Shown: positions 19,354 through 40,314 of the stretch, in pieces
Layout of the letters: every line of letters starts with the position of its first letter
Numbering within the stretch: position 1 is the first letter of the stretch
Source of the DNA: Catajapyx aquilonaris
Lineage: Eukaryota
Direction: 5' to 3'
DNA length: 43,271 bases
Assembly (NCBI GenBank): GCA_000934665.2
Contig: JYFJ02003340.1
Coordinates: 1-43,271 of the forward strand
The notes under the pieces: model-generated
The model's input: only the letters and a program-made list of their open reading frames with translations
Database searches by the model: none
Told to the model about the DNA's origin: nothing
Translations under genes and position numbers: made by a program

Positions 19354-19384
19354 CCTCCAACTTTGAAGATGGTCTCACAATAAA

Positions 19385-19710: not shown

Positions 19711-20004
19711 TATCGAGTACCTTCGAGACCTTCGTGTACCTTCGAGACGAGTAACCTTCGAGAACCTTGCACAATAAAATGTTATATAATAAATATTGTG
19801 CTGTCTCGCCATAAATCATAACTCATAAGCAACTGAGATACATAGATGAAAATAGACCTAATTTACTTCAAAATGTTCGCAGAAAGAAATATTACCATAG
19901 AAAGTGTGCAGATAATTATGGCAATTTTATATATGTTTTGATGTCTGTCTGCTGTACATATGTTTAATAACTTCATACATCAATAAAAATCAACATACTT
20001 TTTC

Positions 20005-20045
20005 CCGCGGTCCCTTGAAGTCTGTTATTTCCAGATTCAACTGTA
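20005..20045. mobile_element. Possible pogo/Tc1-like terminal repeat relic
   Basis: ggtcccttgaagtctgttatttccagattcaactg|ta resembles CAGTYGAA-type termini with a TA flank. The partner end was not found. Confidence 0.3.
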
Positions 20046-20457
20046 TTTTTGGGGGGACATAAATGGCCTCCTTACTATCCCTTTCCCACTTGTATTTAAA
20101 CTGCTGCTTTTGTATAGTGACGTGATTAAGTAGTTTCTTAAATGATATTGATTTTAGTAACAGTGTTGTTACTCAGGGACAGGAAATGAATTTCCTCAAA
20201 ACTATATAATCATGCTTTTTTTTTGTTTTCAAAGTAATTCTTTATAACATAAAATCTCATTTTGCAACCATAATTTATACACAACTCTTCCGGAGAGTTT
20301 TGCAACTCCTACAAATGGGACTGAAAAAAAATGATCTCTGGTTTTTCTTTCCATTATTTACGGAAAGTCTGATAGGAAAAAGTGTGTATAAGAATCACTT
20401 TATTTATTGGAATCGGTTATGAATACATTTTGAAAGAAAAAATCCTATGGCTGATGG

Positions 20458-22247: not shown

Positions 22248-23834
22248 CCTCGCTGATATTGGATCTAAACTGGTATGGTCTACGGTGAGCTCTTGCCATT
22301 ATGTTACAGTACACCTCCTTTTTCTCTATGCTATAATTATCATTATGCAAGGTTATACATTTTTTAAACCATAATTACACGCAACTCACCAAGGGTAATT
22401 TCCTAATGAATGAAAAGAAAAAACAAGAGCGGATATCCTCCCCTTCTTATATGGACAATAATGCATACCCAATTATCGTTCATTAATCAATACATTTATT
22501 GTAATCGGTGATTATACGGAATGTATTTTGCACATACTGTAGTAAAAGAAAGCATTTCGACGGACAAACGTGTCGTTTTTTTGAAGGTGATGATGATGAT
22601 GATGATTAAAGTAAGTTCTAGTGTTTTTTTTACATGTAATTTTTCCTCATTTAAGCCTGACCTTCCTGGAATTCACTCTGAGAGTTGGAAAATTTAAAAT
22701 CGCGTTATGATCGTTAAAATTATGAGAAAATGACATATGGCATCACGTCCAATTTTCAAAATCTTATGTTGGGTCCTTTCTTTTCGGGATTGTATTGTTA
22801 TAATAATTCCTGAAATCCATAAATTTGACTTCAGAACAACCCGAGGATTAATCAGATTTTCAATTTAATTTAATTTTTTTTAAACATGCACCTTTAAATA
22901 CTTGTGCAAAAAATGTATTTCTGGTTTGTTGATTGCTAAATATTGTTAAGAATAAACCTGATAAACGGTTTCGACACAAGTTATATTATTAACGAAACAG
23001 CTTATACATAAAAATGCAGGGGGAAGGCCATTGAGGTTAATACAAAAAGTAGTCAATGAACTACCGTAGCCTTCAGATTATAATTAAATCAGATCCCTAC
23101 GTTTCTTGCATGTCAAGGTCAAATTATTGAGAACATGTTTTAATAACAGAAAGGAAGTGACGAAACCTTCTTTTTTTCTTCTTCATAATTTATTTCGCAA
23201 TGGTCAGCAACTTTTTGTGTATTATAAGCAACGGTTATCTCTAAATATCCGCTATTATTTACTAATTTTATTTACATTTCTGGATTCAGACTTATTAGGA
23301 CAGTGCACTTATCATGTATATTATGTATAGTTAGGCTAAGAATAATCTGTTAAGAGTAGACCACATTATACTGTACAGTGTTGCATTTTTTGGTCACTTC
23401 CTTATCGTCAGCAGGAAACCACCTGTTTCCTTCATGCCAACCACAATAATTACTTTACATGTATGAATTCAGGCCACATGTGTTGGTGTCTGGGAAAGGA
23501 GTTACAACATTGCATATTTGCAGACAAATTTGGCCTGTTTCTGCGACAAGAATCGTTCAGGTTATGTACACAGTGAATTTTTTTCCCCACTTATTATGTG
23601 ACTAACCAACATGACAATAACGTTTAGTGGAGGGGTTATCAACAAACAATGTTTGCTATTACACAGACTATTACAACAAAACAATGACCATCTCGTCTTC
23701 AGTTGATTCGGACATGCTAACAATATAGGTAAGAGATTTACAACTTTTAAAATAGGTGGTTTAAAATGTTTTAAAAAAATCATCAGCTAAAATTAAATGA
23801 CTAATTGTTGTGCTGTATTGTAGATGACGATTGA

Positions 23835-25239
23835 ATGATGAGAACTCTACGAGCACGTGCGATGTGTCTGGTCCTGGCAGCCTTTTCAGCTACTTTTCTC
23901 ATGTTTGTTATCACTTCTAGTAGGAAAGAACAGTCGAGTACAAAAAATGTGCGAAATAATAACCTTATTAATGAAGAGCCTAAGCATCAGGATAGACTAA
24001 CAACAGAGAGTGTTTCGAGCACTATAAAGACACATGATGGCATGTGTCGACAATCGGACAAGACAACGATATATAACGACTACCAGATGTTGGAGACCAC
24101 GTAAGTCACTTTCATATAGTGTTGGTGTAGCGCAATTATTTGACATGTTTTCAGGAACTTGTCTGCGTACATACGACCAGATCAGGTCACAACGTTGATC
24201 GAACCGAATGACCTGTGCGGTACCGAGCAGATTTACCTACTGTTGGGTATCCACTCTGCTGTGTCACACTTCGAGAAACGAAGGGTCATCAGGGCCACCT
24301 GGGGTCGTGACCTGCTCCAGATGCGACCTGACATACGTATGATGTTCATCATAGGTCGAACAAACTATCCTGATGTCATCGTAAGTGGACATCATAATTA
24401 TCATATCCGCGGATATTTAAATTAAGATTTGCCTATTATAGTCGCGGATAGTTGACGAAGCGTTTGAACATGACGACATGCTTCAAGAAGACTTTTGTGA
24501 CAGCTACTTCAACATGACCTTAAAGGCTGTGTTTCTGCTCAAGTGGACGATCCGCCATTGTCCTCAGGCCAAGTACTTCTTCAGGAACGACGACGACACA
24601 ATTGTCCGTCCAACCAATTTGATGACGCTCCTGAAGCAGTACGACGACGGCGTAAGTTGTTAATACACATCCTGAAAATTAATTAAGGTTAATTAATGAT
24701 ATGTCCAGCAGACTAGAGAGATGCACCGGATGGACTGGATAAATCCGGGCATGTCATACTTCCTGCTGGGAGCTAATCCCCAGAGAGGAGCTGATGTCCA
24801 GAGGAACCCGAAGTCCCAGTGGTACGTCCCGAAGAGCATCTACCCCGAATTCCTGTACCCGGATTACTACGGAGGGTCATGCGGATTTGTCACCTCGGGG
24901 TCGCTCCTGCCCTGGTTGTACCAGGAGAGCCTCCAGACGCGGTACATGCACACAGACGATGTGTTCCTGACTGGCGTCGTGGCTGCCAGGAAGCTCAACC
25001 TCACCCTCGATGGCCACCCTGGGTTCGCCAACTACTTCCGATGCAACGTCACCGGGTTGGTATCGGGATCCGGCTACCATCCCAAAGTGACGGAGACCCT
25101 GTGGAGGAAATGGGCCAACCAGACCAGACGAGCAGGTCATCCGACACAGTTTTATGCTTGTAGACGGACACTGGGTACCAGCTTGACCATGAATGACTGG
25201 ATCGCTGAAGTGCGACGGATCATGAAGGGAAACATATGA
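23835..25239 (+). CDS. GT31 beta-1,3-galactosyltransferase-family type II membrane protein
   Basis: Exons 23835-24100, 24155-24380, 24442-24651 and 24709(or 24712, NAGNAG)-25239. N-terminal TM helix; RRVIRATWG, DMLQEDFCDSYFNMTLK, YFFRNDDD, WYVP…YPDY, DDVFLTG. Confidence 0.93.
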
Positions 25240-25313
25240 TTTGTCACACTCTATGTCCGCTCCTGGTTTTATTCCCCCACAAGAAGAAGTGTCATTATCT
25301 TATACGGTCTGGA

Positions 25314-25638
25314 CAGGGAGCATATTCGTTTTCCGCGTCTCTCTGTTTGGGGGCTTTGTTAAGGCTGGCTGCCATTTTGAAGTGGGGGCAACGCCAACGA
25401 GGTATAAATAGGGTACAGGCAAGGGTACAGGCAAAAATAGGGTCCGCCATCTTTGATTCGCGCGTGGCCGCCAAAACCATCAAAGATGGCGGACCCTATT
25501 TTTGCCTGTACCCTATTATTTTATACCTCGTTGGCGTCGCCCCCACTTCAAAATGGCCGCCAGCTTTGGCAACGGCTCCAAACAGAGAGACGCGGAAATC
25601 GAATGTTTGCGCCTCTTATGTATAGTATATGCTCCCTG
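25314..25638. mobile_element. Fold-back MITE (325 bp) with a 7-bp target-site duplication; P/Galileo-like
   Basis: Termini CAGGGAGCATAT / ATATGCTCCCTG, ~140-bp inverted arms, and GTCTGGA duplicated at 25307-25313 and 25639-25645. Confidence 0.88.
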
Positions 25639-25981
25639 GTCTGGATATATTTTTAAACACAACAAATGCAACGAGGAAGTCTGCGTATTATTTTTAAACA
25701 TTTAAATAAAAAAAAACAAGGCCGGAAATATCATCTTCTTACTATAGTAAATAAGTTACTGTGTAGTCAAAAACAACAATTTTTTCAGGCTCAAAAGCAA
25801 CTAAGATTGCAACAAGGTCATACTGAAACAGTTGCAAAGTTAACTTATTTAATACAATGTTTTTGCATTATTTATTATTATTGTGGAATAATAATAATAT
25901 TCCACAATAACCAAAGGATTCATTAAACTGGTCGTACGCTGGTAACCCCATCTTGGGAATATGCTGTGAGTGTAATGAACT

Positions 25982-26113
<132 letters not shown>

Positions 26114-26324
26114 AGACATCTGAACACAATTGTTTTACGTCAGTTTCACAATGGCTTTAGAGACGAGGAAGTGGAGGAAAAACCTCCCATGTTTTATTCC
26201 TCTCCAAGTACACCTCTGGGCGAATGAAGCAAAAGGAACCTTGCAGAGTGTAAAAAAAGGCACGCTCTTTGCGACATAGTGGCACATCTAAGTCTGAAAA
26301 TGTATCAGTATTGATACATCAACC

Positions 26325-28110
26325 ATGTTGGCTGGATCAGTCCTGATCATCGCCACTCTTGCCCTGATGGGAACAAGTGCACAGTTTCCCAGGATACTTT
26401 TCTTCGATGAGTATGAAGCACCGTCCATGGTAAGTACCTTGTTAGCGTCTTAATATGAGTTTAAAATCACCAAGCCTTACTTTTGTTCATGTAGTGCGAG
26501 TACACAAACAAGAAGGGATGGGCATGCGAGCAACACAGGGTAATATCAGATGGATACATCCTGGTAGTGGATCGCATCATAGGTCCAGGGAAAAACTCAA
26601 TTTCTAAGAACACCACAAGTGGGAAGAAACCACCAGTCATACTAATTCATGGACTAGGGTTTTCTTCGGCCAATTTTGTACTCGGACGTCCCGAAAATGC
26701 TCTAGGTAAACATGTACAGACCATTTTGGGCTGATCTTTTACAACGCGACGAACGAACGTTATTGTGACCTTGCCACACAAGATCGTCCCGTAGTAAAGA
26801 TCATGTCATCATAATTTGTTTGTTTGTGGCACTCCCAGGTCTCATCTTAGCGAATGAGGGCTTCGACATCTGGATGCCCAACACCCGAGGCAACATATAC
26901 TGCAGGAAGCATATGACCAAAAACCCTATGTACTCGGACTTCTGGGACTTTGGCCAGGACGAGATAGCCACAGTGGACGTTCCAAACATCATAGACTATG
27001 TCCTGGAGAAGACTGGGTTTGACAAGGTCGGAATAGTCGGATTGTCCTTAGGTGGTACAACCCTCTACCAGACATTCTCCGCAAGACCAGAGTACAACTC
27101 AAAAGTGTATCTGATGGTAGTACTCAGCGGACCTACCGATCGGCTGCATGATAATTCGCCTATTTCTCTAGCTGAACCTCCGTTTTGGGTTGCGGATTCG
27201 TTCGTGGTACGTCAATCGCAACTAAAGGCCTGTTTGCGCCATCACAATTTGAGCCTCTGTCGCACGACTAGAGAGCCTCGGTCGCACGACTAGACAGCCT
27301 CTGTCGCACGACTAGACAGCCTCTGTCGCACGACCACTGGTCGTGCGACAGAGGCTCAAATCGTGAGGGCGTATACAGGCCTTCAGTGTTTTTGTACTGT
27401 ACCGAAGACACATTTTCCGCATTGTCTTACAGAAACTTATGATCGACTTGGGACTGGTGAGCATCCAACTACCTTTTCCGGAGATAATGCCGCTTTTCAA
27501 CACACTTTACACGTGGAACAAGTACACTAAAACATTAGGAACAGTTTCGGCAGGAGTTTCTCTAGGATTTGATCTGGATCAGTTTGACTATGTAAGTTAC
27601 GTGAATCGTGATAACCATTACAGTCTGTTCATTATTGTCTTCATACGCGCAGGATAAGTTTGCGGAAGGACTTTTGTACATATATCCTTCGCTGTCCTGG
27701 CGCACTATTATTCAGTACATACAAATGAGGCAAAGGATTTCATTTGCCAAGTACGATTTCGGACCAGCGGAGAACCTTCGTCGGTACAACTCAACAATAC
27801 CGCCAGTGTACGACCTTAGAAAAATCACAGCTCCAGTGGCCCTCTTTTGGTCTCTCAACGATTGGTCCACACCTGTAAAGGTAAGCCCTTCCACATTTAC
27901 AAACCGCAATAAATTGTTATTAAATTATTATTATTATTATTGCAGGATATCCAAATTAAGAGTGAGCAGTTGCCCAATCTAGTCGGAGCTTTCCAGATCG
28001 AGTGGCCTCTATTCACTCACCTAGATCTGATCTATTCTTTGAAAGCGGGTGAATTGCTCTTTTCACGTGTCACCAAACTTATGATACAGTACAGCGGAAT
28101 TGATACATGA
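26325..28110 (+). CDS. Secreted acid lipase family protein, copy 5 (most divergent, ~411 aa)
   Basis: Exons 26325-26429, 26495-26705, 26839-27206, 27433-27591, 27653-27880 and 27946-28110. HGL, GLSLGG, WSLNDW, FTHLD. All introns GT-AG. Confidence 0.92.
26732..26803. mobile_element. Internally deleted copy of the TGATCTTT…AAAGATCA element (lipase 5 intron 2)
   Basis: tgatcttttacaacgcgacgaacgaacgttattgtg…gtagtaaagatca matches the ends and core of 8440-8612. Confidence 0.65.
27226..27382. mobile_element. PIF/Harbinger-like MITE with an internal 22-bp tandem repeat (lipase 5 intron 3)
   Basis: ~43-bp TIRs aggcctgtttgcgccatcacaatttgagcctctgtcgcacgac / gtcgtgcgacagaggctcaaatcgtgagggcgtatacaggcct. 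Flanks TAA and TCA (degenerate TWA duplication). agcctctgtcgcacgactagac about x4. Confidence 0.75.
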
Positions 28111-28412: not shown

Positions 28413-29514
28413 ATTTCCATTCGAGTGATTGGCAAAGCCACAGTAACGTTCGTTGGCCAGCGGCAGGCACCTTGTGTACACTGCAAAAGAATCACCAAAA
28501 AAAAAAACGCATCAACTGGTATTCATATGACTGTATTTCTTTTTTTTTTTTGATCACCATTAATAACCATCGTCACCAAAAAATCACATTTAAGTATTTC
28601 AGTTGATCAGGACCACTCTAAATGCATTATGTAAAATGTTCTTTGGCACTTTCATTGTTTACAACAGAATCCAACAAACTTGTAAGGAGGGCGGGGGGAA
28701 AAAAAAGCAAGGAATGATCAGTCGCAAAGATATTGATGGAACCAACTACCCAATTGAAAAATAAATTCCCGTTACCTTTATTTTTTTTGGTCCCAATCTA
28801 ACGCAAAATGTATCGCAAAAATTGCACTGGACAAAGCTGTACTAGCATATATCATGATGCCGATTTTTAATGACGGAAGACACTTAAAGTCTAACGTCGT
28901 TAACAGAAATTAAAGGCTCTTATAACAAAAAAATATGTACAATTAACAAACTGGAATGCAGGAAACAAAATTATCACATTTGCAGGACGAAGCTAATTGA
29001 AGCGATTGCTTAGGTACAAAAATATGGCTAATTGCGAATACAAAAAAAAAAAACGTGCAACTCCGACTAATTAACTGTGACCCTAACAGGATGTGCGATA
29101 CTCAACATGAACCATCATCATAACGATAGCAAGTACGACAGGATTTGTCTGACACTTTCTTTGTTAGCGAATATTTATGGAGCTGCAATTGCCAATTATT
29201 TCGATCCGATTTTGATCAAAATGTTGGTTAACAAGTGTCGCGCAAATTCCTTGCATTACTTGTAATAATCTCATGTATTGCCAACGAAAGTTGCACATAA
29301 TTAAAAACTTGGCACTCAAAAACTCCGCGAAATGTGGAATCGCCTTTAAGAATGTGACTAAACAGTGACAATTGCAAAATAATTTCCGTACGTCCGTTTT
29401 GCTCTTGAATTTGCAATTTTCCGAGTACTCTTCCGATTAAATTTGCGGGTCACGACTAGTATGATGCGATGTAATATAGAGAACGCTTTTTTAAATTAGC
29501 TGCATTTTCTGATA

Positions 29515-29632
29515 CAGGGTGAGTCGAAAGGTCGTTCAATGCCTTTGTCATGTACCTATGTGATATTATTCCTTTCGCTAGTTGCATACTTGACAATTGC
29601 AATGAACAGAGCTTGTACGTAAAGTCACCCTG
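29515..29632. mobile_element. Small Tc1/mariner-type MITE
   Basis: TA|CAGGGTGA…TCACCCTG|TA termini; the TIR is short. Confidence 0.55.
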
Positions 29633-29843
29633 TACATATTAAACTCAGCAGAACATTAAAAAAAAAAAAGGCAGTATGATTATCCAACAAAAAAAGGCCT
29701 CCTTTTCACAATAAATTTTTTTTTCGCTCAATCCTAACGATTCGACCACCATAATGAAAAGCACCATTTGTTTTCCCGTGGATGACTCGCATTGTTTTCA
29801 GTCCCCGTTCCTTCCTAATGAAGTAGCTCACGTTAAACCAATC

Positions 29844-31748
29844 TCACAAGATGGTGCACTTTGCATTGACAATATTGGGGCAGCATCCACATCTGTGATG
29901 CATTGGCCTCGGAGGTACCAAATTCAAGTCGTCCTCGTCTTCTTCGGCTGAGAGCTCCAGGTTCTCGATGCTGAACGTATCGGTCAGTTCCTGCCTACAG
30001 CCGTCCTTGTTGCTTTGTGATATCGGGAAGAAGTCAATCTCTTCTTCGCTGAAATGTAAACCGGACAGTGTTTAAGAAAGCAGCGATATTAAACCATTGC
30101 CGACTGACCTTTCATCTGTGTCCCATTCGACAAGCGGCTGCCTTTCCCTAGCCGTTGCTGCCTGCGATTTCGCCGGAACAGGCAGACGCTGAATCGGAAT
30201 CAGGCTTGAGTTGATCGAAGACGAACACGAGCCACTTCCGCCACCTCCAAGGTCCCCGCTGCCTCCTCCGCCCACGCCCATTGCAATTCTGCTACATGCA
30301 GCTCCTTTTCTACACTCGGACTTTCCGACGCCATGAGTCTTGCGCACCAGTGCTATCTTCTTCTCTGTAATGCGAACAATGAGTTTTCATGCCGCATCGA
30401 CTCAGCGTAATGTACTTGCCTAATTTCCGCTGTAGTTCAATGGTGCTGGATTTCTTTGGCGTTCCGGCGCTGGTGCTACTTGCGGAACTGCTGTCGCTGC
30501 TTGCCTGCACAGAATTAGCATTTAAAAAAATTAATCAGTGTTAATAAAATTAACAAAATCAAATTAAATACTGAAAAATTGAAAATTAATTATCAATTTT
30601 CCAGTTTTTAAATTATCAATAGATTTTTCAGGTTTCATTAATTCAATGAATTTTGTGGTTTTCAGTTTTTAATTGTTAAATAAATTGTCCATTTTCCATT
30701 TTCAATTTGTCAATTAATTGCAAAATTAAAAACTGGAAAATCAATTGAACAAATAGAACTGAAAAATAGAAAAAATTAACTATCAATTTTCCTGTTTCCA
30801 GTTTTTAATGTATCAATAAATTTTTGCAGCTTCTAATTATTGTTCAATGAATTTTCCAGTTTCCAGTAGTTTTTAATTTTCCAATTAATTTTTTTCACTT
30901 TCAGTTTTTAATAATTTTCAATTGCTTTTCCACTTTCCATTTGTCAATTTATTGCAAAATTAAAAACTGGAAAAATTTAACAGGTCAATTAAATCTGGAA
31001 AATTAACTGAAGGATTGAAATCTGGAAAATTAACTGAAGGATTAAAATCTGGAAAATTAATCGACTGATTGAAATATCTGGAAAATTAATTGAACCATTA
31101 AAAAGTGAAAAGTTAATTGAACAATTAAGAAGTGAAAAGAGATTAATATTGAAAAATTAACTGAAAGGTGGAAAATTAATTTAATAAGCATTAAAAATCC
31201 ACACTTAAAATCAGTCAATATTTCCAAACCGCACATATGAAATACCAAGTGTGTCGTAACTTACGACACACACACTTTGACAGCATTTTGTTGCAACCAT
31301 ATGCTTACGACTCGTAAGCATATGTTTGCAACAAAATGCCGTCAAAAGTTAAGCATAAACGTCCATATTTTCCTTGCATTCTGGGCCATGCTGCCGTTAC
31401 ACTTTTAATGATCCGGTGTTCGTTCGGAACGGAACGAAAGCGACCCAACCATTCATCTCGAATTCGTATTGTCCATGTTTGCAACATTCAGTCGTCATGA
31501 ACCATTTTCCTTATAATATTCTTACTATGCTGCCGTTATGATTTTTAATTCTTCGTATCATCCAAGCCAATATTATTCCTTTTACGACTACTTAGCTCCA
31601 AATGTCTTGATCCGATTTAACCAAAACATTTTTACATCAAACAAACAATGTCAATTACCATGAAGAGCAGCTTGTTGTTGCTATCCTGGTGGAAAGTGTG
31701 TGTGGAACGTATCCTGTGATCGCTGTCTTCTATCCCGCTGTCCTCCAT
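29844..31748 (-). CDS. FAM219A: FAM219 family protein (211 aa) ending in a CaaX motif (CTIL)
   Basis: Exons 31748-31659, 30504-30420, 30364-30109 and 30048-29844. ELQRKLEKKIALVRK, QPLVEWDTDESEEE and EDEDDLNLVPPRPMHHRCGCC…KCTIL match FAM219 motifs (LQVKLEKQRELARK, QPLV..DSDSD, DDEDLDLIPPK…CxCC…Cxxx). A versus B orthology cannot be resolved here. Confidence 0.88.
30525..31195. repeat. AT-rich degenerate repeat (aaaactggaaaa/aaattaactga units in both orientations) in FAM219 intron 1
   Basis: Recurring ctggaaaattaa units and their reverse complements, including a local tandem aaatctggaaaattaactgaaggatt. Confidence 0.7.
31249..31346. repeat. Two adjacent palindromes (11-bp and 35-bp arms, 1-nt spacers)
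   Basis: gtgtgtcgtaa-c-ttacgacacac, then tttgacagcattttgttgcaaccatatgcttacga-c-tcgtaagcatatgtttgcaacaaaatgccgtcaaa (2 mismatches). Confidence 0.9.
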
Positions 31749-32291
31749 CCTCCTCACCTCCTCTTTGGCCTATCAAGACTAGATGCGTTGAGCTCAACAT
31801 ATAATAGTTTTTTGTGTACACACTTTATTGGGAGCCAGAAAAGTGGCCCGCCTCTTAATTACTAATTAATTAAATATATCAAGAGAGAAAAGAAGGCTAG
31901 ATGTCACTTGGTGGCCGCCATCTTGGATTCGAATAAAAAAAGACAAAAAAAAAATAAAAAAAAAGATGGCGGATAAAATCGAACGCGAACCCCCATAAAA
32001 CGTAGCGGTTATATTGTACTAGCGATCGATTTTTATAGCCGTTATTAATTAAAGCGCGATTTGTAGCCGCGACTTGTTAAGCGCGACTCGTTAAGCGCGA
32101 TTTTTGTCAACATTTTTTTTTAATTGAAAAAAAAAAATTTGTAAACAAGTTTCCAGGGAAACGTGTTTTTTTATTTTTTTTATTTTTTTTTAAAGGGACT
32201 CTGGGCTTCAACACGTATTGATCACATCAAAATCGGTGATTGGAAAGATCTGGCCTGATTTGCTGCAGGCGGAGGAATAGGCATTACGAAC
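31749..32291. promoter_or_regulatory. Probable bidirectional promoter between FAM219 and DNAI1
   Basis: 543 bp between the divergent ATGs. Divergent YY1-like motifs GCCGCCATCTT (31914-31924) and AAGATGGCGG (31963-31972); repeated AAGCGCGA motifs at ~32050-32100. Confidence 0.65.
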
Positions 32292-35200
32292 ATGCCTCCT
32301 GCGAAGAATCCAAAGGTATGAGTGTGTACCGCAAGCGTACAACATTTAAAATTGACAAGATAAATCATAGTTAGTTGAGTCGTTCTAAAACAAAATTAGA
32401 ACATTAATTACAAGATCAGTATTAATTTAATGGCCATAAATATATATCCGGCTCACCAAAGTTATTTTTTTGTTGCAATTATTGCGACAAGCCATTCGCA
32501 AACAAATCGCAACTGCAAATAATTGATGCGGCTTGGCGTATGCTCATAAATAATGCATGCTTACAAACATTAAATGAACAGTAATAAGAATAATTACAGA
32601 CCATATAAGCCGTTCATTTAATAAGCGCATGATCGGAGCTGCCAAATTCCAACGATTTGCAATTTAATTAGTAACGTACAGTTGTCGCAATTGGAACGCT
32701 TAATGAACATTAAAGCATGAATAATTAAATGACAATAATGACTGTTCAATAATAAGCTTATGATTTAATTAAGCAATTTAATTAGTTAGTTAATTAATTT
32801 AATTAGTAACGTACAGTTGTCGCAATTGGAACGCTTAATAAACATTAAAGCATGAATAATTAGTAAAAATACAATAATGACTGTTCAATAATAAGCTTAT
32901 GATCCAGAATAACGCAGCAAATTTGTCACTCATAAGCCGCATACGCGAAACAATTATTTGCAATTTTTTCATGACAATTGTATAGTTGTCGCAATTGTTT
33001 GCATAAACATGCTTACATCCATTAAAACATGAATAATCATAAAATGTACAGAACGTTCATTACTGATTAACATTAAGAGTGGTTGGGCATGAATACCGTC
33101 GCTCATGAAACAATTATTATGTGAGATTGTACGGTAAATTGCTTATTAATTGCTTATTGAATTACAAATTAGCATGGAGCCGACCGACCACATCGTCTGT
33201 CAGGCGGCGCACATCGCAAGAGTGTGGCCGTATCGCACGCGTCGGAAAAGCGGGACACGCTGGGTTCGACCGTGGACATAGGACAAAGAGAGCGGCATGG
33301 TACGCGCCACCATGCGGCTGCGTACATGTTCCAGCCGGAGAGGGACCACGTGTCGGACGCCGAGCTCAAAGAGGAAATCGAGCGGATCCTGACCACCCGC
33401 AACCCGCATGCGAAGGTCTCCCGGGTGGTGTTCAACTTCCACGAGATGACCTACAAGCCTGTGCCGCAGCAGCTGCGTAAGCCCATCGTGGTCTTCGAGC
33501 TGGAGGGCCACATGCTGCACCACGAGTCGGACGAGGCTCAGAAGCAGCTGAGAGGGGAGAAGAGCCACGAGGAAGCCGCCAAGGAGGAGGTGAGCCAGCC
33601 GCATTTCCCTGGAGCAGACGGCTTTTCATGAGCCATCCATACATACGAAAGAATACAAATTAATGTGGTTTGTGTGCCGCACAGGTTAAGGAGGAGGTGT
33701 CAGTTGCGAAGGTGGATGAGGGTGCGGGCGGGGACGAAGCGGAGGAAGAGGAGGATGAGGGTACGGCGGAAGTGGCGGAGCAGGCGGAACCTGAGGAAGC
33801 GGAGGCGGGTGAAACAACCGGCGCGGCAGGAGAAGGCAGCGCGCACAAGGGCGTTAAGGTGCTGAACAAGTTCAACTTTTGCGACCGCGCCGGGCAGACT
33901 TACCTGGTGGTCCGGAGGGAGCATGAGACGCAAACGGAGCCGCCGCCGCAGGGGGATCTATCCGGGCTCGTGCTGCAGTGGGTCATATTCGATGCGTACC
34001 AGGAGGATTTCGCTATTCAGGTACGGCCTGTTGCGACGTCGATTGTACAAAGCGCTGAGTTGTTCATGTTGTAGGAAGCGGAGAAGGAGCGTGCGGCTGC
34101 GGCGGAGAAGGCGGCTGCCAGGGAAGCTTCTGGTGGTGGAGGCGGTGCTCCGGCTGCTGGCGGCCGACCTGGGACAGCCGCCGGTGGTTCAAAAGACGAC
34201 CGTCGTGCCAAGAAGGGCATGGCCTCGTACGACATGGCCGTCGGCGTCGAGGACCTCAGCGGTGTGGCATACCCGACGAAGATACTGGAGCGGCTTGTCT
34301 GCCAGAACATCTACAACGAGATCAACCAAGGTATTATTGCGACGTAAGTGTGACGTTACCTGAATCAAACGGACCGATTCACAGATTTCAAGTTCTGGGA
34401 GGACCTCTCGGATGAGTTCCGCGATGGTAAGGGCAGCGTACTTCCGCTCTGGAGGTTCGGGTACGACCGCAGCCGGGGTTGCAACAACGTCACTTGCATC
34501 AGCTGGAGCCACCACTACCCGGACCTGTTCGGCGTCGGATACGGATGCTGTAAGTACATGCGGTTCCGCACAATTGCGTACATTAAATTAGCGTCTTCCA
34601 GATGAGTTCGACATGCAGCATGTGTCCGGTACGCTGTGCTTGTTCACGCTGAAGAATCCATCGTACCCGGAGCTGGTGCGTCCCATGCCGTCCGGAGTGG
34701 CCGCGCTGGACATGAGTCCCGACCTGCCCTGCCTGCTGGTGGTCGGCCTGTACAACGGGAATGTCGTGGTCGTCGACGGCCGCTCGGCTGAGACGCCCAT
34801 AATGCGGTCGTCCCATTGCAAGGGAAAGCACAGCGAGACGGTCACGCAGGTCGTATGGGGCAAGGCGGGCGTTGCGGACGGAGAGCGCAACTTCTACTCC
34901 CTGTCCAACGACGGGGAGATGCGCCACTGGGTGCTGGGGTCGGACGAGCTCAGGTGGATGCGGATCCTGCGTCTGAGGCACGACCGAAAGCCAGTTGTGG
35001 GACCAAGAGGCGTGCCGATCCAGGCGTACGGTGAGTCCAATCCGCATTAGCGTACGAAATTATGCTTACAAGAGTTGTCCGCAGCTGTCGGCACGTCTCT
35101 GACTTTGCACCCGGTGGACCCGGCGCTCTTCCTGGTCGGCACGGAGGAAGGGAAGATCCGGCTGTACAGCACCGCTTACACCTCTAGGGTGATACGCTCC

Positions 35201-35760
35201 TACCGCGGGCACCGCCTGGCCATCACAGGCCTGGAGTGGAACACCTTCTGTCCGGACATATTCATCAGCTCGTCCGAGGACCGCACGATCAAGATCTGGA
35301 AGCGGTGGTCCAGCGTACCTGTGTTCAACTTCCCAATGTCCGCAGCAGTCGGCGACGTCGCTTGGTCTCCATACGCATCTACAGTGTTCGCAGTTCCGGT
35401 CGGAGACGGTCTGATCTTCATATTTGATCTGACTGTGAACAGACAGCGGCCGATCTGCAGGCAGGTAAGTCCAGCCGGTCCTGTAACGAGAGCAATGCTG
35501 CTAAATTTTGGAAATCGCAGGTGGTGGCATCGAAGCGACGAGGCGGCCGGCTGACCCACCTCTGCTTCAACAAGACGTACCCGATCGTACTTCTGTCTGA
35601 CGAGCGAGGCCACATCCACTGCCTGAAGCTGTCACCGAACCTCCGTAAGGTTAACAAGGACTCGAAGGGAAACAACATCGTCGGGAGCGCACTGATCGAG
35701 ATGGAAAAGACCAAGATGGACAAGATCCTCTCGCTGATTCAGGATCCGCAGCTTGATTAA
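32292..35760 (+). CDS. DNAI1: Axonemal outer-arm dynein intermediate chain 1 (IC78-type, WD40)
   Basis: Exons 32292-32315, 33173-33589, 33685-34020, 34075-34330, 34385-34549, 34602-35030, 35085-35464 and 35521-35760. Motifs ELKEEIERILTTRNPHA, LNKFNFCDRAGQTY, DFKFWEDLSDEFRDGKGSVLPLWRF, FTLKNPSYPE, FLVGTEEGKI, AVGDVAWSPYASTVFA and LKLSPNLRK. Confidence 0.93.
32662..32903. repeat. ~105-bp direct duplication in DNAI1 intron 1
   Basis: atttaattagtaacgtacagttgtcgcaattggaacgctta…aataagcttatgat at ~32662-32764 and ~32797-32903. Confidence 0.85.
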
Positions 35761-36179
35761 GCGTTAACGAGGCCTGCAAGCGGCATATTTTTTTTTTCTT
35801 TCTTGAGCCGTCAATTTTATCAATCGGCAGGTAGGGAAAAGCCTGATGTCTAAATCGCAATTGGAAAGGTCACAATAATAATAATAAAAAGTAGGGGGCA
35901 AGATCTCTGAAAAATTGTTTTAATTCGATTCGAACCTGCCTACAAAGTTTCAGTCGCCCACAAGTACCATAACATGAAAAAGCATTAATTAAATAATAAA
36001 CATCGGTAATAAAACGGAAATCGACAGCTTCCTGCACTCGGGAGAAAAAAAAGTAAGCGGCACTTGTTATTTAAAAATAAAAATAAAAATAAAAACCAAC
36101 TTTGAAGGAAATTAACACAACATGACAGTCGGGCTTATCTTACGGTTAATTAGTGCACTTAACAGATGTGCAGGAATGA

Positions 36180-37385
36180 TTACTGCAAGTACACTTCCCA
36201 TCCTTCGGTAGGAATGTCTGGAGGGGCGACCCAAGTTGGAGGCACACTCTGACCTGAGCTGTCCAAGTACTGGTCCCAAGAATTCCTGCAAATTGCGATG
36301 AGATTACAAACAAAAAGTTTCTCAACTGATAATAATCGCACGATTGAACGTACCTAACATGCGTGAGAGCAGCAAGATCCCGTTGAGCCGCAGTTTGACA
36401 CAAATAATGCGGGTACAAAGGATGGGTGTGGTTCGGCGAAGGTGGGCCAAACAGCGATGTGAGGTCAGTCACAGCCGATTCCTTCCTCTTGGGTCTCTTT
36501 GCGTCCTTGTTGTCCTGGTCCATAATCACCCGAAGCGCAGCCTCTTCCTTCTCGTACAGCTCCAACTGACATGACATCATGTCCTTCAGTGGCTGAAGTC
36601 TGCTTTCGAACTCCTGTTGCATCCGAGGGTCCTCGCCAGGCCGAACCTTTTCCTTCCGAAGCTCTGCAAGTGCGGACAGAAGCGCAATTGACCGTCGGGC
36701 TTCCGACTGTTTGCGTCTCACGTCGCCTAAAACCGAGTCGGCCTCCAGCTTCATCGCATGCTCCTGCAAATAGTCAGTTTAATAACAGCGAACATTACAA
36801 GTGCGATCAGTACTAACTTGTTTGGCTTTGTTGGATTTCGCAGCAACCGATTCCATCCATTTGTCCACTTCGCTCGCTTTCCGTTGCCGCAGTTGCAGCT
36901 CCTCAGTCCGCTCTTCATTCGCCCGCTTCTTTCTCCGTCCATCCCGCTGCCTCTTCCGTATCCTCCGTTCAACATCCTGCTTCAATCTGGCGATATCATC
37001 GGAACTTAAAGCAGCGATTTGTCCAACCAACTCGTCCGCTTCCGCCTTCTTCACCACCACCTGGCTCCACAAACCATCCCACTCGTCACAATCCACCGCA
37101 TTTTGTAAGTCCGCCTTGACCTTTCCAAGCTCGGAAAGGACCAAGTGGGCTTGCTTCACGACCCGGCTCAGGTCGCCAATCTAGCAGGAAAAATCATAAT
37201 AAGCTTCAGTAACTTGGTGTAAAAAGTCAAGACAGTACCTTGAATCCATTTTCATTTCCACGTTGTTTAACAATGGGAACCTCCCTCTGTCCCTTCGAGA
37301 GTGCCCAACAATCCACCCACTGTTGGTCAGCCCCACGCCGCCAGCCACCCCAGGACTGCCAACCACACTGTCCCGCACCGTACAT
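36180..37385 (-). CDS. PDCD7: Programmed cell death protein 7 / U11-59K minor-spliceosome protein (~341 aa)
   Basis: Exons 37385-37239, 37180-36818, 36763-36354 and 36285-36180. MKLEADSVLGDVRRKQSEA, LYEKEEAALRVIM, LFG and RNSWDQYL…VPPTWVAPP…W match the PDCD7 C-terminal domain. Confidence 0.88.
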
Positions 37386-37600: not shown

Positions 37601-39969
37601 TTAGGCCGGAAGCTGCTCGATCCCGGCGTTCAGGATCCGACGCGCCTCCCGCACCTCCTCAGTCTCGGCAAACTTCTCCTGCAGGTCCTCGATCAGGATC
37701 TTAAGCTCCTCAGATGCCTGCTGCAGGTGGCGCACGCAGTCCGGGATCATCATCAGAGACTCCTGCAGAACCTTCTCCTGCAGAAGGATGTACGCCTCCT
37801 CACGCCCTGCAAGAGAACAAGCAGCATGACAACGTCGCAGAAGTAAATTACGAGCAACGACATACCGATGAGCATGAAAAAAATTGTAAAAGTATCTTTT
37901 ATATAAATTTCACTAGCAGTTGAGCCTATTCTTCGTAAGACCCGTTTCCATGATTTTATGCCATGAAAATTGTGTTGCCATGCACCCTGTTGCCATGTCC
38001 CCATTGCCATGTACTGTTGCCACGTACCCACTGCCATGTACTAGGTTGCCACGTACCCACTGCCATGTATCAATTGCTATGTACTGTTGTCATGTACCTA
38101 CTCCCATGTACTAGGTTGTCATGTACCCATTGCCAAGTACTGTTGCCATGTACCCATTGCCATGTACTAGGTTGCCATGTACCCACTGCCATGTATCAAT
38201 TGCCATGTACTAGGTTGCCATGTACCCACTGCCATGTATCAATTGCTATGTACTGTTGTCATGTACCTACTCCCATGTACTAGGTTGCCATGTACCCATT
38301 GCCAAGTACTGTTGCCATGTACCCACTGCCATGTACCCTTTGCCACATATCTGCTGCCGTGTATCCATTGTCATGCACCCTGTTTGCCATGTATGCCAGT
38401 TGCCATGGACAAGCGAACAAACTTTCACTTATATGTACATAAGATGTCCCAAGGTCAGGTCATGGCAGGATGGTCTGGTCATCCTCGTAAATATCTGTTA
38501 AACGTTTTGATGATCTCACGGCTGTTGACAGTAGCATGAAACGGCTCAAAATTAAATCTTCGTGCAATGATTTTAATCGTGGTTTTGCGACTTAGCATGT
38601 TGGCGCCTGTCAAATGTTGATAAATCGCATTATCAGTTCGCTTTTGTTCTCTCTCTCTCAAAGGAACTATTCTTCCCAAGGCTGTGTACAGGCATATCGG
38701 TCAAGGCTCCTTTTTTAATCAGCACGGCCCACAGAAGGTGAAGTGTGGGTGGCTCATGACTCATGCGCGATGACTCCATACCACCCCCCACCCACCCACT
38801 CCCTTTTGTTCCATGTGAACCAACTCTTCCTTCTTCCTTAAAAAGGGATGCTCTTGGCCATGAAACAACCAAACATTTATCACACTAAACATATTTAAAT
38901 ATTAATATTGATAATATTAAATATTTTAATATAACATTTAATACTATTTCAATTTATTTACTGGCCTAAAAAAAAAGCAACATTTACCCCTCGTAAATTT
39001 TCGCATTTATATAATAATCACTTATTTTATTGGCTAATTTTATTAATTTTATGATGTATCGACTTATTTTATTAATTTTATGATGTATTGACTTATTTTA
39101 TTAATTTTATGATGTATTGACTTATGATTTAATGCCTGCTTTTATTTACCAGTATGCACTTATTTATTGTCATTAACTTATCTTAAAAATGCACTTATTA
39201 TTTTTTATTTACAGATTTAAATGTGATCACAGGGTAAACAAAATTACAGTAAAAAGTTTTATTTTATTTATTTGCTAATTTTACTCTTACTTATTTTTCA
39301 TTATTTACTAATTTTACTCTTCTACGTATTTTTAATTATTTATTTATTTCTTTACTCATGTTACGTGATGTTACTCATTCACTTTTTTTTTATTATTGTA
39401 CTTTACTTATTTACATACAAGTACTTATTTTATTAACAATTTTTTTGTTTTGCTTATTTATCCTCATTGATGCATATTTATTGATTTATTTATGTACCCT
39501 TTTTTATTGCCTCTAATTCACTTACTCTATGTATTTATTTATATTTATTTACTGATTTAAAATCTGAGCACAGGTTATCATCCAACATGTGGCATTTTAG
39601 GCCAACGTGTGCCACACCCGGATGAACCTCAGCGTGTCTGTTGGAGGATGCGTTCCGTCAACGCACGACGCACAATGCATTGAGCTGTGGCATTGAGCTG
39701 TCACTTATTAAGCGGACAAGTGTTGTGTCCAGCAAAAGGGACGTACTGGTTGTCGTTGTTCTCCCTCCCCCAGCCTCACCTTCCTCCCTGTACTTGTCTA
39801 TCTTCTTCCTCTGGTCCTCGGCCTCCTTCTCGTAGCACAGCTTCTCCTTGGTGTACCTCTTCACCACCCCGGTCTTGATCTTCAGTGGCTTCAAGGCAGG
39901 GTCGGGCTTGGCTTGGGTCGTCTTGTTGGCTGCTGGGGATGCTGCCTTCTTGGAATCCGCGTCGGCCAT
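37601..39969 (-). CDS. TBCA: Tubulin-specific chaperone A (131 aa, with a short N-terminal extension)
   Basis: Exons 39969-39780 and 37806-37601 (phase 1). LKIKTGVVKRYTKEKLCYEKE and VLQESLMMIPDC. Confidence 0.95.
37972..38410. repeat. 13-15-bp unit satellite (tgccatgtac core) with a higher-order duplication, in the TBCA intron
   Basis: About 30 variant monomers. A ~135-bp block of variants at ~38032 recurs at ~38201. Confidence 0.92.
39035..39125. repeat. ~29-bp tandem repeat x3 (gacttatttttattaattttatgatgtat)
   Basis: Direct reading. Confidence 0.85.
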
Positions 39970-40314
39970 ACTCTTCCTCTCAAAAATGGGATCGAATCGG
40001 GCACAGGTCAAAAGGTTGAACGGGTAAAAGAAGAAAAAGGAAGAGAAAAAATCGAACGTCTTTTTTTCCTTCCAACGTTGGTTTCCGAAGCTCTCTGGAC
40101 AGGGAGGGCCGAATGCAACGCAGCGACTGCAAATCGCTGCTAATTCATCGCGTTGTTATCAACAGGCGTTTAATTCAATGCCCTAATTGCGGTTCAAGAA
40201 CCTCATTAAACGTGCGCAAATTTTGCAAAAAATCACATTGTAATAAAGTCCGATAATAAGTAGTACGTGCTCACAGTACCGCATGAAAAATGGACTGTTA
40301 CTTCCGTTATTGTT

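What the first reader, a model, noticed from the sequence alone, without database searches (positions are those of the whole stretch)
29844..35760. FAM219 and DNAI1 are head-to-head, as in human: candidate ancient bidirectional gene pair
Seen: FAM219 (minus, ATG 31748) and DNAI1 (plus, ATG 32292) diverge from a 543-bp interval. FAM219 is fragmented in the ORF track and only becomes recognisable after splicing. Established, from memory: human FAM219A (C9orf25) and DNAI1 are adjacent and divergently transcribed on 9p13.3. Inference: the pair predates the protostome/deuterostome split and is held together by shared regulation. This would hint at a link between the poorly characterised FAM219 and motile cilia or sperm flagella, or at DNAI1 borrowing a housekeeping promoter.
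Basis: partly seen in the sequence, partly recalled or inferred. Interest (0 to 1): 0.82.

Follow-up and report, generated by a model that had tools for sequence, protein, structure and literature searches.

The report
FAM219–DNAI1 head-to-head gene pair
An insect-type genome keeps the cilia-motor gene DNAI1 and the small lipid-anchored protein gene FAM219 back to back as in humans: a real and probably ancestral gene neighbourhood, but one more example of a known kind and no proof that the two genes work together.

Summary
A 4-exon FAM219 gene (minus strand, ATG 31748, stop 29844) and an 8-exon DNAI1 gene (plus strand, ATG 32292, stop 35760) diverge from a 543-bp interval. All five DNAI1 exons tested match human DNAI1 best and in order; DNAI2 scores far lower. 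The spliced FAM219 protein fits an arthropod family profile over its full length, and that profile retrieves canonical FAM219A proteins.

The human arrangement is in print: TSS distance 243 bp, head-to-head also in chicken and Fugu (Li 2006), and listed for four vertebrates only (Davila-Lopez 2010). So only the extension to an arthropod is new.

Descent from the bilaterian ancestor is very likely on arithmetic grounds. I could not test any intermediate lineage, and Drosophila has probably lost the pair.

"Held together by shared regulation" is not shown. The human pair is not co-expressed in Li's data. The interval holds two separate motif sets: a divergent TISU/YY1-type pair, and a Fox plus X-box module next to DNAI1 like the one at Drosophila Dnai1.

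A FAM219–cilia link is already suggested in print: human FAM219A is a prenylated PDE6D cargo. The CaaX box is conserved here (CTIL).

Modest interest; a new member of a known kind.

The parts
31659..31748 (-). FAM219 coding exon 1 (ATG at 31748; 30 codons; donor ATG|GTAATT)
   Evidence: N-terminus MEDSG is shared with 87 of 112 family hits.
30420..30504 (-). FAM219 coding exon 2, followed by a GC-AG intron (donor TTAG|GCAAGT, 55 nt, 30419-30365)
   Evidence: The join gives ...QRKL-E-KKIALVRK, which parallels ...HKKLERRIEQAKK in P0002 and P0001. With a GT donor the frame runs into a stop.
30109..30364 (-). FAM219 coding exon 3 (Gly-rich insert, LIPIQRLPVP and PLVEWDTDE motifs)
   Evidence: Aligned over its full length to the arthropod family HMM.
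29844..30048 (-). FAM219 coding exon 4 (acidic DEDDLNLVPP motif, Cys cluster, CaaX box CTIL, stop TGA 29846-29844)
   Evidence: PF15260 hit at 22.4 bits, E = 1.5e-4. Cys at position -4 in 90 of 112 family hits.
31749..32291 (.). 543-bp interval between the two start codons (GC about 0.33-0.36)
   Evidence: No RNA gene inside.
31914..31925 (-). TISU/YY1-type element CAAGATGGCGGC on the FAM219 strand, 12 of 12 to SAASATGGCGGC, 165 nt upstream of the FAM219 ATG
   Evidence: The 10-mer occurs 5 times in the window against 0.09 expected. Consensus taken from PMC9658832.
31962..31973 (+). Inverted TISU/YY1-type copy AAAGATGGCGGA on the DNAI1 strand (10 of 12); 36 nt separate the two 12-mers (38 nt between the 10-mer cores)
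   Evidence: inverted repeat I22.
32052..32100 (.). 14-bp tandem repeat AAGCGCGACTTGTT, 3.6 copies; meaning unknown
32141..32147 (+). Forkhead-type motif GTAAACA (fits RYMAAYA), 1 bp from the X-box, 151 bp upstream of the DNAI1 ATG
   Evidence: Consensus and Drosophila parallels from Newton 2012 Table S2.
32149..32162 (.). Palindromic X-box-like site GTTTCCAGGGAAAC (fits RYYNYYN(1-3)RRNRAC), 129 nt upstream of the DNAI1 ATG
   Evidence: Not significant alone: 3 in the window against 4.3 expected. X-box plus Fox within 25 bp arose in 2.1% of 20000 simulated intervals.
32292..32315 (+). DNAI1 coding exon 1 (MPPAKNPK; donor AAG|GTATGAGT)
   Evidence: Inferred; no RNA evidence.
33173..33589 (+). 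DNAI1 coding exon 2 (N-terminal region specific to IC1/IC78)
   Evidence: The PDB search hits only DNAI1 and Chlamydomonas IC78: 8j07_m1 at 1.8e-12, chain residues 9-122.
33685..34020 (+). DNAI1 coding exon 3
   Evidence: Best PDB hits are DNAI1: 5.5e-11 and 7.9e-11, residues 136-240.
34075..34330 (+). DNAI1 coding exon 4 (Ala/Gly-rich, low complexity)
   Evidence: Frame and splice sites only.
34385..34549 (+). DNAI1 coding exon 5
   Evidence: Frame and splice sites.
34602..35030 (+). DNAI1 coding exon 6 (WD40 propeller)
   Evidence: DNAI1 3.9e-22 and 6.9e-20; DNAI4 1e-14; DNAI2 4.1e-5.
35085..35464 (+). DNAI1 coding exon 7 (WD40 propeller); the alternative in-frame acceptor at 35073 is not excluded
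   Evidence: DNAI1 3.3e-33 and 2.5e-32; DNAI4 8.1e-23. Pfam WD40. All 84 database hits at E <= 1e-20 are of DNAI1 type.
35521..35760 (+). DNAI1 coding exon 8 (stop TAA 35758-35760)
   Evidence: DNAI1 8.1e-17 and 4.6e-15, residues 628-697.

Best explanation
The window comes from an insect-type arthropod. It carries the single-copy orthologues of DNAI1 (outer-arm axonemal dynein intermediate chain 1) and FAM219, arranged 5'-to-5' with 543 bp between the start codons.

FAM219 here is a small protein with no recognised domain outside its own family. It ends in a Cys cluster and a CaaX box, so it is most likely prenylated.

The arrangement matches the published human/chicken/Fugu DNAI1-C9orf25 head-to-head pair. 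It is most likely inherited from the bilaterian ancestor (inference).

The most likely reason it persists is promoter crowding, not common function. Both promoters sit in a few hundred bases, so almost any breakpoint between the genes would damage one of them. In the interval I read two modules:
1. A central divergent pair of TISU/YY1-type elements, a constitutive promoter type in mammals. It probably marks the FAM219 start region and perhaps a distal DNAI1 start.
2. A Fox motif plus X-box directly upstream of DNAI1. This is the motif pair that Fd3F (a FoxJ1 relative) and Rfx use on motile-cilia genes in Drosophila, including the fly DNAI1 gene.

On this reading DNAI1 is switched on only in ciliated cells by its own module, FAM219 is read more broadly, and the two need not be co-expressed.

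Shown: gene identities, gene structures, geometry, and presence of the motifs. Inferred: common ancestry of the arrangement, the function of the motifs, and the reason for persistence.
For: Gene identities:
- Five DNAI1 exons match human DNAI1 best and in order along the chain.
- Database hits are of DNAI1 type.
- The FAM219 model scores 175.6 bits over its full length against an HMM of 99 arthropod relatives.
- That profile found 183 cluster representatives in an exhaustive search. Of the 131 new ones listed, 68 carry PF15260, many at 130-143 bits.
- An HMM of 22 canonical FAM219A proteins scores the window model at 38.1 bits, against 9.1 for the best of 1000 shuffles.

Vertebrate arrangement in print:
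- Li 2006 text and supplement.
- Davila-Lopez 2010 supplement.
- Horse gene table.

Chance argument (my arithmetic). A given gene is the divergent 5' neighbour of DNAI1 with probability of about 1 in 2N, roughly 4e-5 for N of about 13000. Irimia 2012 reports 593 unrelated pairs retained since the bilaterian ancestor, 54.8% of the human ones in 5'-5' orientation.

Motifs:
- The 10-mer AAGATGGCGG occurs 5 times against 0.09 expected. The minus-strand copy matches the TISU consensus 12 of 12.
- GTAAACA lies 1 bp from GTTTCCAGGGAAAC and 151 bp upstream of the ATG.
- Newton 2012 Table S2 lists Fox-to-X-box distances of 0-65 bp and Fox-to-ATG distances of -6 to -172 for Fd3F/Rfx targets. For fly DNAI1 (CG9313) it gives a conserved pair 4 bp apart.
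- CG9313 is expressed only in chordotonal neurons and testis.

Expression: the human pair is not co-expressed in Li's data, r = -0.25, p = 0.19.
Against: - No genome of any intermediate lineage could be inspected, so common ancestry rests on a probability argument and two lineages.
- Davila-Lopez 2010 found the pair in four vertebrates only among 64 species. Weak annotation of invertebrate FAM219 at that date could explain this.
- Drosophila seems to have the two genes on different arms (recalled, not tested).
- No transcript data exist for this window, so start sites, and therefore promoter crowding, are unproven.
- The X-box pattern alone is at chance level in the window: 3 against 4.3 expected. 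Four of 7 looser X-box-like sites in the window also have a Fox motif within 25 bp. The module was found post hoc.
- The TISU/YY1-type 10-mer also sits inside a 170-bp palindrome at 25385-25550. It may belong to a repeat family and not to promoters.
- TISU and YY1 knowledge comes from mammals.
Confidence: 0.6

Rival explanations
1. First reader's reading. One shared, co-regulating bidirectional promoter keeps the pair together because FAM219 works in motile cilia or sperm flagella with DNAI1.
For: - Human FAM219A is a prenylation-dependent PDE6D cargo. Its non-prenylated mutant sits at the ciliary base and centrosome.
- The CaaX box is conserved in the window protein (CTIL) and in 90 of 112 family hits.
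- The Fox/X-box module lies only about 390-415 bp from the FAM219 ATG and could act in both directions.
- 5'-5' conserved pairs are enriched for co-expression in general.
Against: - The human pair shows r = -0.25, p = 0.19 in Li's data set.
- Wild-type FAM219A was not detected inside cilia.
- Ser at -3 from the prenylated Cys, which that paper links to ciliary cargo, is Asn in the window protein and Ser in only 13 of 90 family members.
- Drosophilid relatives have lost the CaaX box and probably the linkage.
- CG31051 is absent from the motile-cilia gene tables I could read.
Confidence: 0.15
2. Passive retention. The pair is ancestral and has survived only because a 0.2-0.5 kb gap is a very small target for breakpoints. 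No selection acts on the neighbourhood.
For: - The gap is small in human (243 bp between TSSs, 743 bp between CDSs) and here (543 bp).
- The pair appears lost in fast-rearranging flies, as expected for an unconstrained linkage (one search gives 46 pairs retained in flies).
Against: - Irimia 2012 argues that retention of the same pairs in several lineages exceeds neutral expectation.
- Chicken and Fugu keep the orientation although their CDS distances are 66100 and 5011 bp, so a tiny gap is not universal.
Confidence: 0.2
3. Independent convergence. The two genes became divergent neighbours separately in arthropods and in vertebrates.
For: - Only two lineages are documented.
- The 2010 survey of 64 species reports vertebrates only.
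Against: - The chance of this exact neighbour and orientation is about 4e-5 per genome (my arithmetic).
- No other 9p13-type neighbour is in the window, so there is no larger block whose reshuffling would make it likely.
- The orientation is identical.
Confidence: 0.04
4. Artefact: mis-assembly or vertebrate contamination creates the adjacency.
For: None found. The source genome is not held, so read support could not be checked.
Against: - Both proteins are only about 45-51% identical to their nearest database relatives.
- Both genes have the same 52-60-nt intron style and the same composition.
- The flanks carry insect-type genes such as an acid-lipase array.
- There is no N in the window.
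Confidence: 0.01

Closest known systems
Human DNAI1 / C9orf25 (FAM219A) head-to-head pair at 9p13.3, conserved in chicken and Fugu (Li et al. 2006, PMC1487180; Davila-Lopez et al. 2010, PMC2871058)
   Same: Same two orthologous genes and the same divergent 5'-5' orientation. The gap is short: human TSS distance 243 bp and CDS distance 743 bp; here the ATG distance is 543 bp.
   Different: Here the host is an arthropod. The published records list vertebrates only. Vertebrates also have a second paralogue, FAM219B, which is not next to a DNAI1 gene (recalled).
Conserved ancestral microsyntenic pairs (CAMPs) of Irimia et al. 2012 (PMC3514665), e.g. HSPE1-HSPD1
   Same: Unrelated genes kept adjacent since the bilaterian ancestor, mostly 5'-5', with short gaps. 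The proposed cause is shared or interleaved cis-regulation.
   Different: CAMP status needs linkage in at least 4 of 11 major lineages; I have two. I could not check whether this pair is on their list, because the supplement was unreadable. There is no co-expression evidence for this pair, unlike HSPE1-HSPD1.
Fd3F/Rfx (FoxJ1/RFX) Fox-motif plus X-box module of Drosophila motile-cilia genes, including CG9313 = Dnai1 (Newton et al. 2012, PMC3414849)
   Same: GTAAACA fits RYMAAYA and GTTTCCAGGGAAAC fits RYYNYYN(1-3)RRNRAC. The spacing is 1 bp (published range 0-65; 4 bp for CG9313). The Fox motif is 151 bp upstream of the ATG (published range -6 to -172).
   Different: It is untested here: no conservation check in relatives and no reporter. 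Statistically it is only suggestive, at 2.1% of simulated intervals, and it was found post hoc.
TISU element / YY1 site SAASATGGCGGC of mammalian short-5'UTR promoters (as cited in PMC9658832)
   Same: A 12-of-12 match on the FAM219 strand and a 10-of-12 inverted copy 36 nt away. The 10-mer is strongly over-represented in the window.
   Different: In mammals the ATG inside TISU is the start codon. Here both internal ATGs open ORFs of only 5 and 10 codons (read), and the real ATGs lie 165 and 318 nt further on. Its function in arthropods is unknown, and one other pair lies in a foldback palindrome.
Human FAM219A as a prenylated PDE6D cargo (Cells 2023, PMC9857354)
   Same: A C-terminal CaaX box preceded by a Cys cluster and the acidic ...DEDLDLIPP-type motif.
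   Different: X is Leu here, which by textbook rule predicts geranylgeranylation (recalled); in the canonical chordate proteins X is Gln. The residue at -3 is Asn, not Ser. PDE6D binding is untested.

Membership tests
DNAI1 (outer-arm dynein intermediate chain 1; IC78/ODA9; Tetrahymena DIC2) | More similar to DNAI1 than to DNAI2, DNAI3/DNAI4 or the cytoplasmic dynein intermediate chains | tested here: met
   Exon 6: DNAI1 6.9e-20, DNAI4 1e-14, DNAI2 4.1e-5, DYNC1I2 3e-4. Exon 7: DNAI1 2.5e-32, DNAI4 8.1e-23, DYNC1I2 8.7e-12; DNAI2 is not among the 60 rows shown of 347 (the top two rows are designed WD40 repeats). No tree was built because no DNAI2-4 sequences were held.
DNAI1 (outer-arm dynein intermediate chain 1; IC78/ODA9; Tetrahymena DIC2) | Collinear match along the whole chain, including the non-WD40 N-terminal region | tested here: met
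   Exons 2, 3, 6, 7 and 8 map to human DNAI1 residues 9-122, 136-238, 358-492, 496-625 and 628-695. Exons 2, 3 and 8 hit only DNAI1-type chains.
DNAI1 (outer-arm dynein intermediate chain 1; IC78/ODA9; Tetrahymena DIC2) | C-terminal WD40 beta-propeller | tested here: met
   PF00400 WD40, E = 1.6e-10, on exon 7, plus many propeller families.
DNAI1 (outer-arm dynein intermediate chain 1; IC78/ODA9; Tetrahymena DIC2) | Assembles with DNAI2 and the heavy chains into outer dynein arms | not testable with these tools
   Needs biochemistry or genetics.
FAM219 (Pfam PF15260) | Pfam match at or above the gathering score (27 bits) | tested here: inconclusive
   The last exon alone scores 22.4 bits, E = 1.5e-4. 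The spliced protein could not be handed to the Pfam tool.
FAM219 (Pfam PF15260) | Profile-level homology to canonical FAM219A proteins | tested here: met
   An HMM of 22 proteins with PF15260 at 100 bits or more scores the spliced model at 38.1 bits, against 9.1 for the best of 1000 shuffles. The arthropod profile retrieves 68 PF15260 carriers among 131 new representatives. Of 99 arthropod relatives, 17 hit PF15260 at E <= 1e-3. NCBI names several insect relatives 'protein FAM219A'.
FAM219 (Pfam PF15260) | C-terminal CaaX box with upstream Cys cluster | tested here: met
   The window protein ends ...CGCCPNIVNAKCTIL. Cys at -4 in 90 of 112 hits, and 88 of those 90 have further Cys within 16 residues.
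FAM219 (Pfam PF15260) | Prenylation-dependent binding to PDE6D (shown for human FAM219A) | not testable with these tools
   Known only from PMC9857354. Ser at -3 is not present here.
Conserved ancestral microsyntenic pair (Irimia 2012) | Linkage in at least 4 of 11 major metazoan lineages | tested here: inconclusive
   Two lineages are documented: vertebrates from print and this arthropod. No eukaryote genome context is held.
Bidirectional promoter pair (divergent TSSs less than 1 kb apart) | Transcription start sites less than 1000 bp apart on opposite strands | tested here: inconclusive
   The ATGs are 543 bp apart, so the TSSs are closer than that unless either gene has an upstream non-coding exon. 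No RNA data.
Rfx/Fox (Fd3F, FoxJ1) target promoter | X-box and Fox motif closely spaced near the start site, conserved in relatives, and needed for expression | tested here: inconclusive
   Motifs, spacing and position fit the published table. Chance level is 2.1%. Conservation and function were not testable.

The most novel reading that the evidence does not exclude
FAM219 is an ancient, doubly lipid-anchored (Cys cluster plus CaaX) component of the motile-cilium programme. An RFX/FoxJ1-responsive bidirectional promoter reads it together with DNAI1, and that promoter has been kept intact since the bilaterian ancestor. On this reading the gene neighbourhood marks FAM219A as an unrecognised candidate for motile-ciliopathy or male-infertility phenotypes. 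It would also link PDE6D-type lipid-cargo trafficking to outer-arm dynein delivery.
Probability: 0.12. Interest if true: 0.7.

Novelty: new member of a known kind. Interest (0 to 1): 0.38.

Why it matters
If the pair is truly ancestral, it joins the few hundred gene neighbourhoods that have survived more than 500 million years. It would then be a compact 0.5-kb test case: do such pairs persist through shared regulation, or only because two promoters are packed too tightly to separate?

It also adds independent, though weak, genomic-context evidence to the one published hint that the poorly characterised FAM219A is connected to cilia.

The arthropod gene models are of practical use too. They include a GC-AG intron and a conserved CaaX box, and many insect FAM219 orthologues are still labelled 'uncharacterized'.

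Tried and rejected
- **RNA evidence.** The look-up of sequencing runs listed no RNA holder. Start sites and junctions stay unverified.
- **Own genome.** Not held.
- **Earlier scan notes.** Nothing on this genome, on these sequences or on these words.
- **Metagenome contigs with a termite-like FAM219 protein.** Six short loci (1.1-5.8 kb) hold only FAM219 exons. tblastn with the DNAI1 model found nothing. The 47.6-kb contig of P0097 was not returned.
- **Adjacency through consecutive locus tags or accessions.** This failed.
- **Unreadable supplements.** Those of Irimia 2012 and Cachero 2011 could not be read. They could list this pair, or CG31051 expression.
- **Literature searches with no record of the pair outside vertebrates.** FAM219A+DNAI1, C9orf25+DNAI1, DNAI1+microsynten (0 papers), FAM219+'dynein intermediate chain' (0 papers), FAM219+Drosophila+ortholog.
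- **GT donor for FAM219 exon 2.** Rejected because the frame hits a stop. Replaced by the GC donor.
- **Other promoter motifs.** DRE, Ohler motif 1, NRF1, E2F and Inr gave no match in the interval at the settings.
- **Bacterial promoter/terminator scan.** Irrelevant for a eukaryote.
- **Other human 9p13.3 neighbours.** None found among Pfam hits of 129 further ORFs in the window.


Full report
**What is there**

The region is eukaryotic. Exons have GC of 0.52-0.60 and lie in AT-rich DNA with GC of 0.33-0.37. Introns are very short.

On the plus strand I built an 8-exon gene running from 32292 to 35760. It has 748 codons. All introns are GT-AG, and six of the seven are 52-95 nt long.

On the minus strand I built a 4-exon gene running from 31748 to 29844, with 211 codons. 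Its second intron has a GC donor (TTAG|GCAAGT, 55 nt). The only nearby GT donor leads into a stop codon. The GC join gives a reading that parallels the ...KKLERRIEQAKK stretch of insect relatives.

The two start codons are 543 bp apart. No tRNA or Rfam family lies in 29000-36500.

**DNAI1 identity**

I searched five exons one by one against all PDB chains. Each hits human DNAI1 (8j07_m1) and a second DNAI1 chain (9fqr_Gn) best. The hits run in order along the chain: residues 9-122, 136-238, 358-492, 496-625 and 628-695.

- For exon 6, DNAI1 scores 6.9e-20, DNAI4 1e-14 and DNAI2 4.1e-5.
- For exon 7, the two top rows are designed WD40 proteins, which is a repeat artefact. DNAI1-type chains follow; DNAI4 scores 8.1e-23 and cytoplasmic IC2 8.7e-12.
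- Exons 2, 3 and 8 hit only DNAI1-type chains, among them Chlamydomonas IC78 and Tetrahymena DIC2.

A word-index search with exon 7 gave 84 proteins at E <= 1e-20 among 372 candidates. Every informative name is 'dynein axonemal intermediate chain 1' or DNAI1, with three exceptions. Rows P0173, P0192 and P0193 are called 'dynein intermediate chain 2, ciliary', which I recall is the sea-urchin name for the same orthologue. None is called DNAI2.

Identity to fish DNAI1 is 49-52% and to Drosophila 42%. I built no tree, because I held no DNAI2-4 sequences.

The predicted N-terminus MPPAKNPK resembles those of P0136, P0191 and P0190.

**FAM219 identity**

- The last exon alone scores 22.4 bits on PF15260. 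This is below the 27-bit gathering score.
- The same exon found a thrips protein and a damselfly protein. Their profile found 112 proteins, nearly all from insects plus one millipede. NCBI names several 'protein FAM219A'.
- The spliced model scores 175.6 bits, end to end, against an HMM of 99 of these proteins.
- 17 of those 99 match PF15260 at E <= 1e-3.
- An exhaustive search of 1.84 billion cluster representatives with the 99-sequence profile gave 183 hits at E <= 1e-3. I Pfam-scanned the 131 new proteins among the best 150. 68 carry PF15260, many at 130-143 bits over the whole model, and no other family recurs.
- An HMM built from 22 of those canonical proteins scores the window's model at 38.1 bits. 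The best of 1000 shuffles scores 9.1.

So the minus-strand gene is the arthropod FAM219 orthologue. Its closest relatives are polyneopteran insects at 42-46% identity. This places the window in an insect-type arthropod whose own proteins are not in the database.

**What FAM219 looks like**

No Pfam family other than its own matches it. It has a conserved N-terminus (MEDSG in 87 of 112 hits), an LIPIQRLPVP motif, and an acidic ...DEDDLNLVPP motif. It then has a Cys cluster and a C-terminal CaaX box, CTIL in the window.

Cys stands at position -4 in 90 of 112 family hits. The last residue is L in 54, I in 15, M in 14, and Q, N or R in the remaining 7. Drosophilid members end ...CFGCWRRR and lack the box.

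Passages of PMC9857354 report the following for human FAM219A:
- It binds PDE6D only when Cys182 of its CaaX box is intact.
- The wild-type protein was not seen inside the cilium.
- The Cys-to-Ala mutant sits at the ciliary base and centrosome.
- The authors suggest a ciliary role.

The Ser at -3 that they tie to ciliary cargo is Asn in the window protein. It is Ser in 13 of 90 family members.

**Is the human arrangement as recalled, and is it known?**

Yes on both counts.

- Li et al. 2006 (PMC1487180; I read passages and supplement rows) list DNAI1 (+) and C9orf25 (-). The TSS distance is 243 bp and the CDS distance 743 bp. [quoted passage not shown] Their expression correlation is -0.25 with p = 0.19.
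- Davila-Lopez et al. 2010 (PMC2871058; supplement file 6, row 358) list the pair as conserved in chicken, stickleback, human and mouse only, out of 64 eukaryotes.
- A horse gene table also shows the two genes adjacent (PMC8515666).
- My searches found no record outside vertebrates.
- Irimia et al. 2012 could list the pair, but its supplement could not be read.

**Ancestral or convergent?**

I could not inspect any other animal genome:
- No genome is held for this window.
- Metagenome loci held only FAM219 exons.
- Cluster look-ups were off.

The argument is therefore arithmetic and counts as inference. In a genome of about 13000 genes, one named gene is the divergent 5' neighbour of DNAI1 with probability of about 4e-5. 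Against that, Irimia 2012 (passages) reports 593 unrelated pairs retained from the bilaterian ancestor. Of the human ones, 54.8% are in 5'-5' orientation. Flies retain 46 and Lottia or amphioxus 448-492. Shared descent is thus far more likely than convergence.

One lineage probably lacks the pair. The fly DNAI1 orthologue is CG9313, Entrez 37374. A fly FAM219 relative (P0099) falls in an Atlas cluster named CG31051. By ID conventions that I recall, these lie on arms 2R and 3R. I did not test this.

No other gene in the window is a human 9p13.3 neighbour.

**What the interval holds**

1. *A divergent pair of TISU/YY1-type elements.* CAAGATGGCGGC lies at 31914-31925 on the minus strand. It matches the consensus SAASATGGCGGC 12 of 12, as quoted in PMC9658832. 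A copy matching 10 of 12 lies at 31962-31973 on the plus strand.
   - The 10-mer AAGATGGCGG occurs 5 times in the window against 0.09 expected.
   - The other copies lie just upstream of an ATG at 3867-3876 and as a divergent pair inside a 170-bp palindrome at 25385-25550.
   - The palindrome copy leaves open that the motif belongs to a repeat.
2. *A 14-bp tandem repeat, 3.6 copies,* at 32052-32100.
3. *A Fox motif next to an X-box.* GTAAACA (32141-32147) is followed after 1 bp by the palindrome GTTTCCAGGGAAAC (32149-32162). The palindrome ends 129 nt upstream of the DNAI1 ATG.
   - These fit RYMAAYA and RYYNYYN(1-3)RRNRAC as given in Newton 2012, Table S2 (PMC3414849, supplementary file 1 part 1).
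   - In that table Fd3F/Rfx targets have X-box-to-Fox distances of 0-65 bp and Fox-to-ATG distances of -6 to -172.
   - Fly DNAI1 (CG9313) has a conserved pair 4 bp apart.
   - Statistically this is only suggestive. The X-box pattern alone is at chance, 3 against 4.3 expected. An X-box plus a Fox motif within 25 bp arose in 2.1% of 20000 simulated intervals. Four of 7 looser X-box-like sites elsewhere in the window also have a Fox motif nearby.

**Reading**

The pair is real and very probably ancestral. The evidence favours two crowded promoters over one co-regulating promoter. One is a constitutive-type core near FAM219. The other is a cilia-type module at DNAI1.

This fits three observations:
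- The human pair is not co-expressed.
- Fly Dnai1 is restricted to chordotonal neurons and testis.
- FAM219 has no demonstrated ciliary function.

The reading stays an inference until start sites and expression are measured.

A true FAM219-cilia link is possible but unproven; I give it about 0.12-0.15.

**Verdict**

The vertebrate part is already known. The arthropod extension is a new member of a known kind (conserved divergent gene pairs). Interest is modest.

Noticed in passing
window 25385-25550: A near-perfect palindrome of about 170 bp (foldback or MITE-like). It carries a divergent pair of the same AAGATGGCGG 10-mer (25444 minus, 25483 plus) that sits between FAM219 and DNAI1. The motif may therefore spread with a repeat family.
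   Followed up: partly
window 30365-30419 (minus strand): A GC-AG intron in FAM219 (donor TTAG|GCAAGT). It would be missed by GT-only gene finders, and the family is often annotated as 'uncharacterized' or fragmentary.
   Followed up: yes
window 11097-27290: Five tandem acid-lipase gene copies (Abhydro_lipase plus Abhydrolase_1 exon pairs) on both strands, with a galactosyltransferase exon at 24700-25236 among them.
   Followed up: no
window 36146-37180 and 37604-40155 (minus strand): PDCD7 lies tail-to-tail with DNAI1, and TBCA lies beyond it. Human PDCD7 and FAM219B both lie on 15q (recalled, unchecked), in a region I recall as paralogous to 9p13.
   Followed up: no
proteins P0086, P0088-P0092, P0096, P0098, P0099, P0101, P0103: Drosophilid FAM219 relatives end ...CFGCWRRR and have lost the CaaX box that 90 of 112 family members keep. 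Their Atlas cluster is named CG31051.
   Followed up: partly
window 30991-31139 and 32600-32900: 27-bp and 56-bp tandem repeats in FAM219 intron 1. Direct repeats of about 120 bp are visible by eye in DNAI1 intron 1.
   Followed up: no
window 3852-3876 (minus strand): A third TISU/YY1-type copy (AAAGATGGCGGC). Its internal ATG opens only a short ORF and lies just upstream of the open frame 3574-3849. It is possibly the promoter of an unidentified minus-strand gene.
   Followed up: no
window 6869-9960 (plus strand): Long GC-rich open frames (up to 248 codons, GC up to 0.58) with no Pfam hit at E <= 1e-4. An unidentified gene lies between an ankyrin-repeat exon and the lipase array.
   Followed up: no
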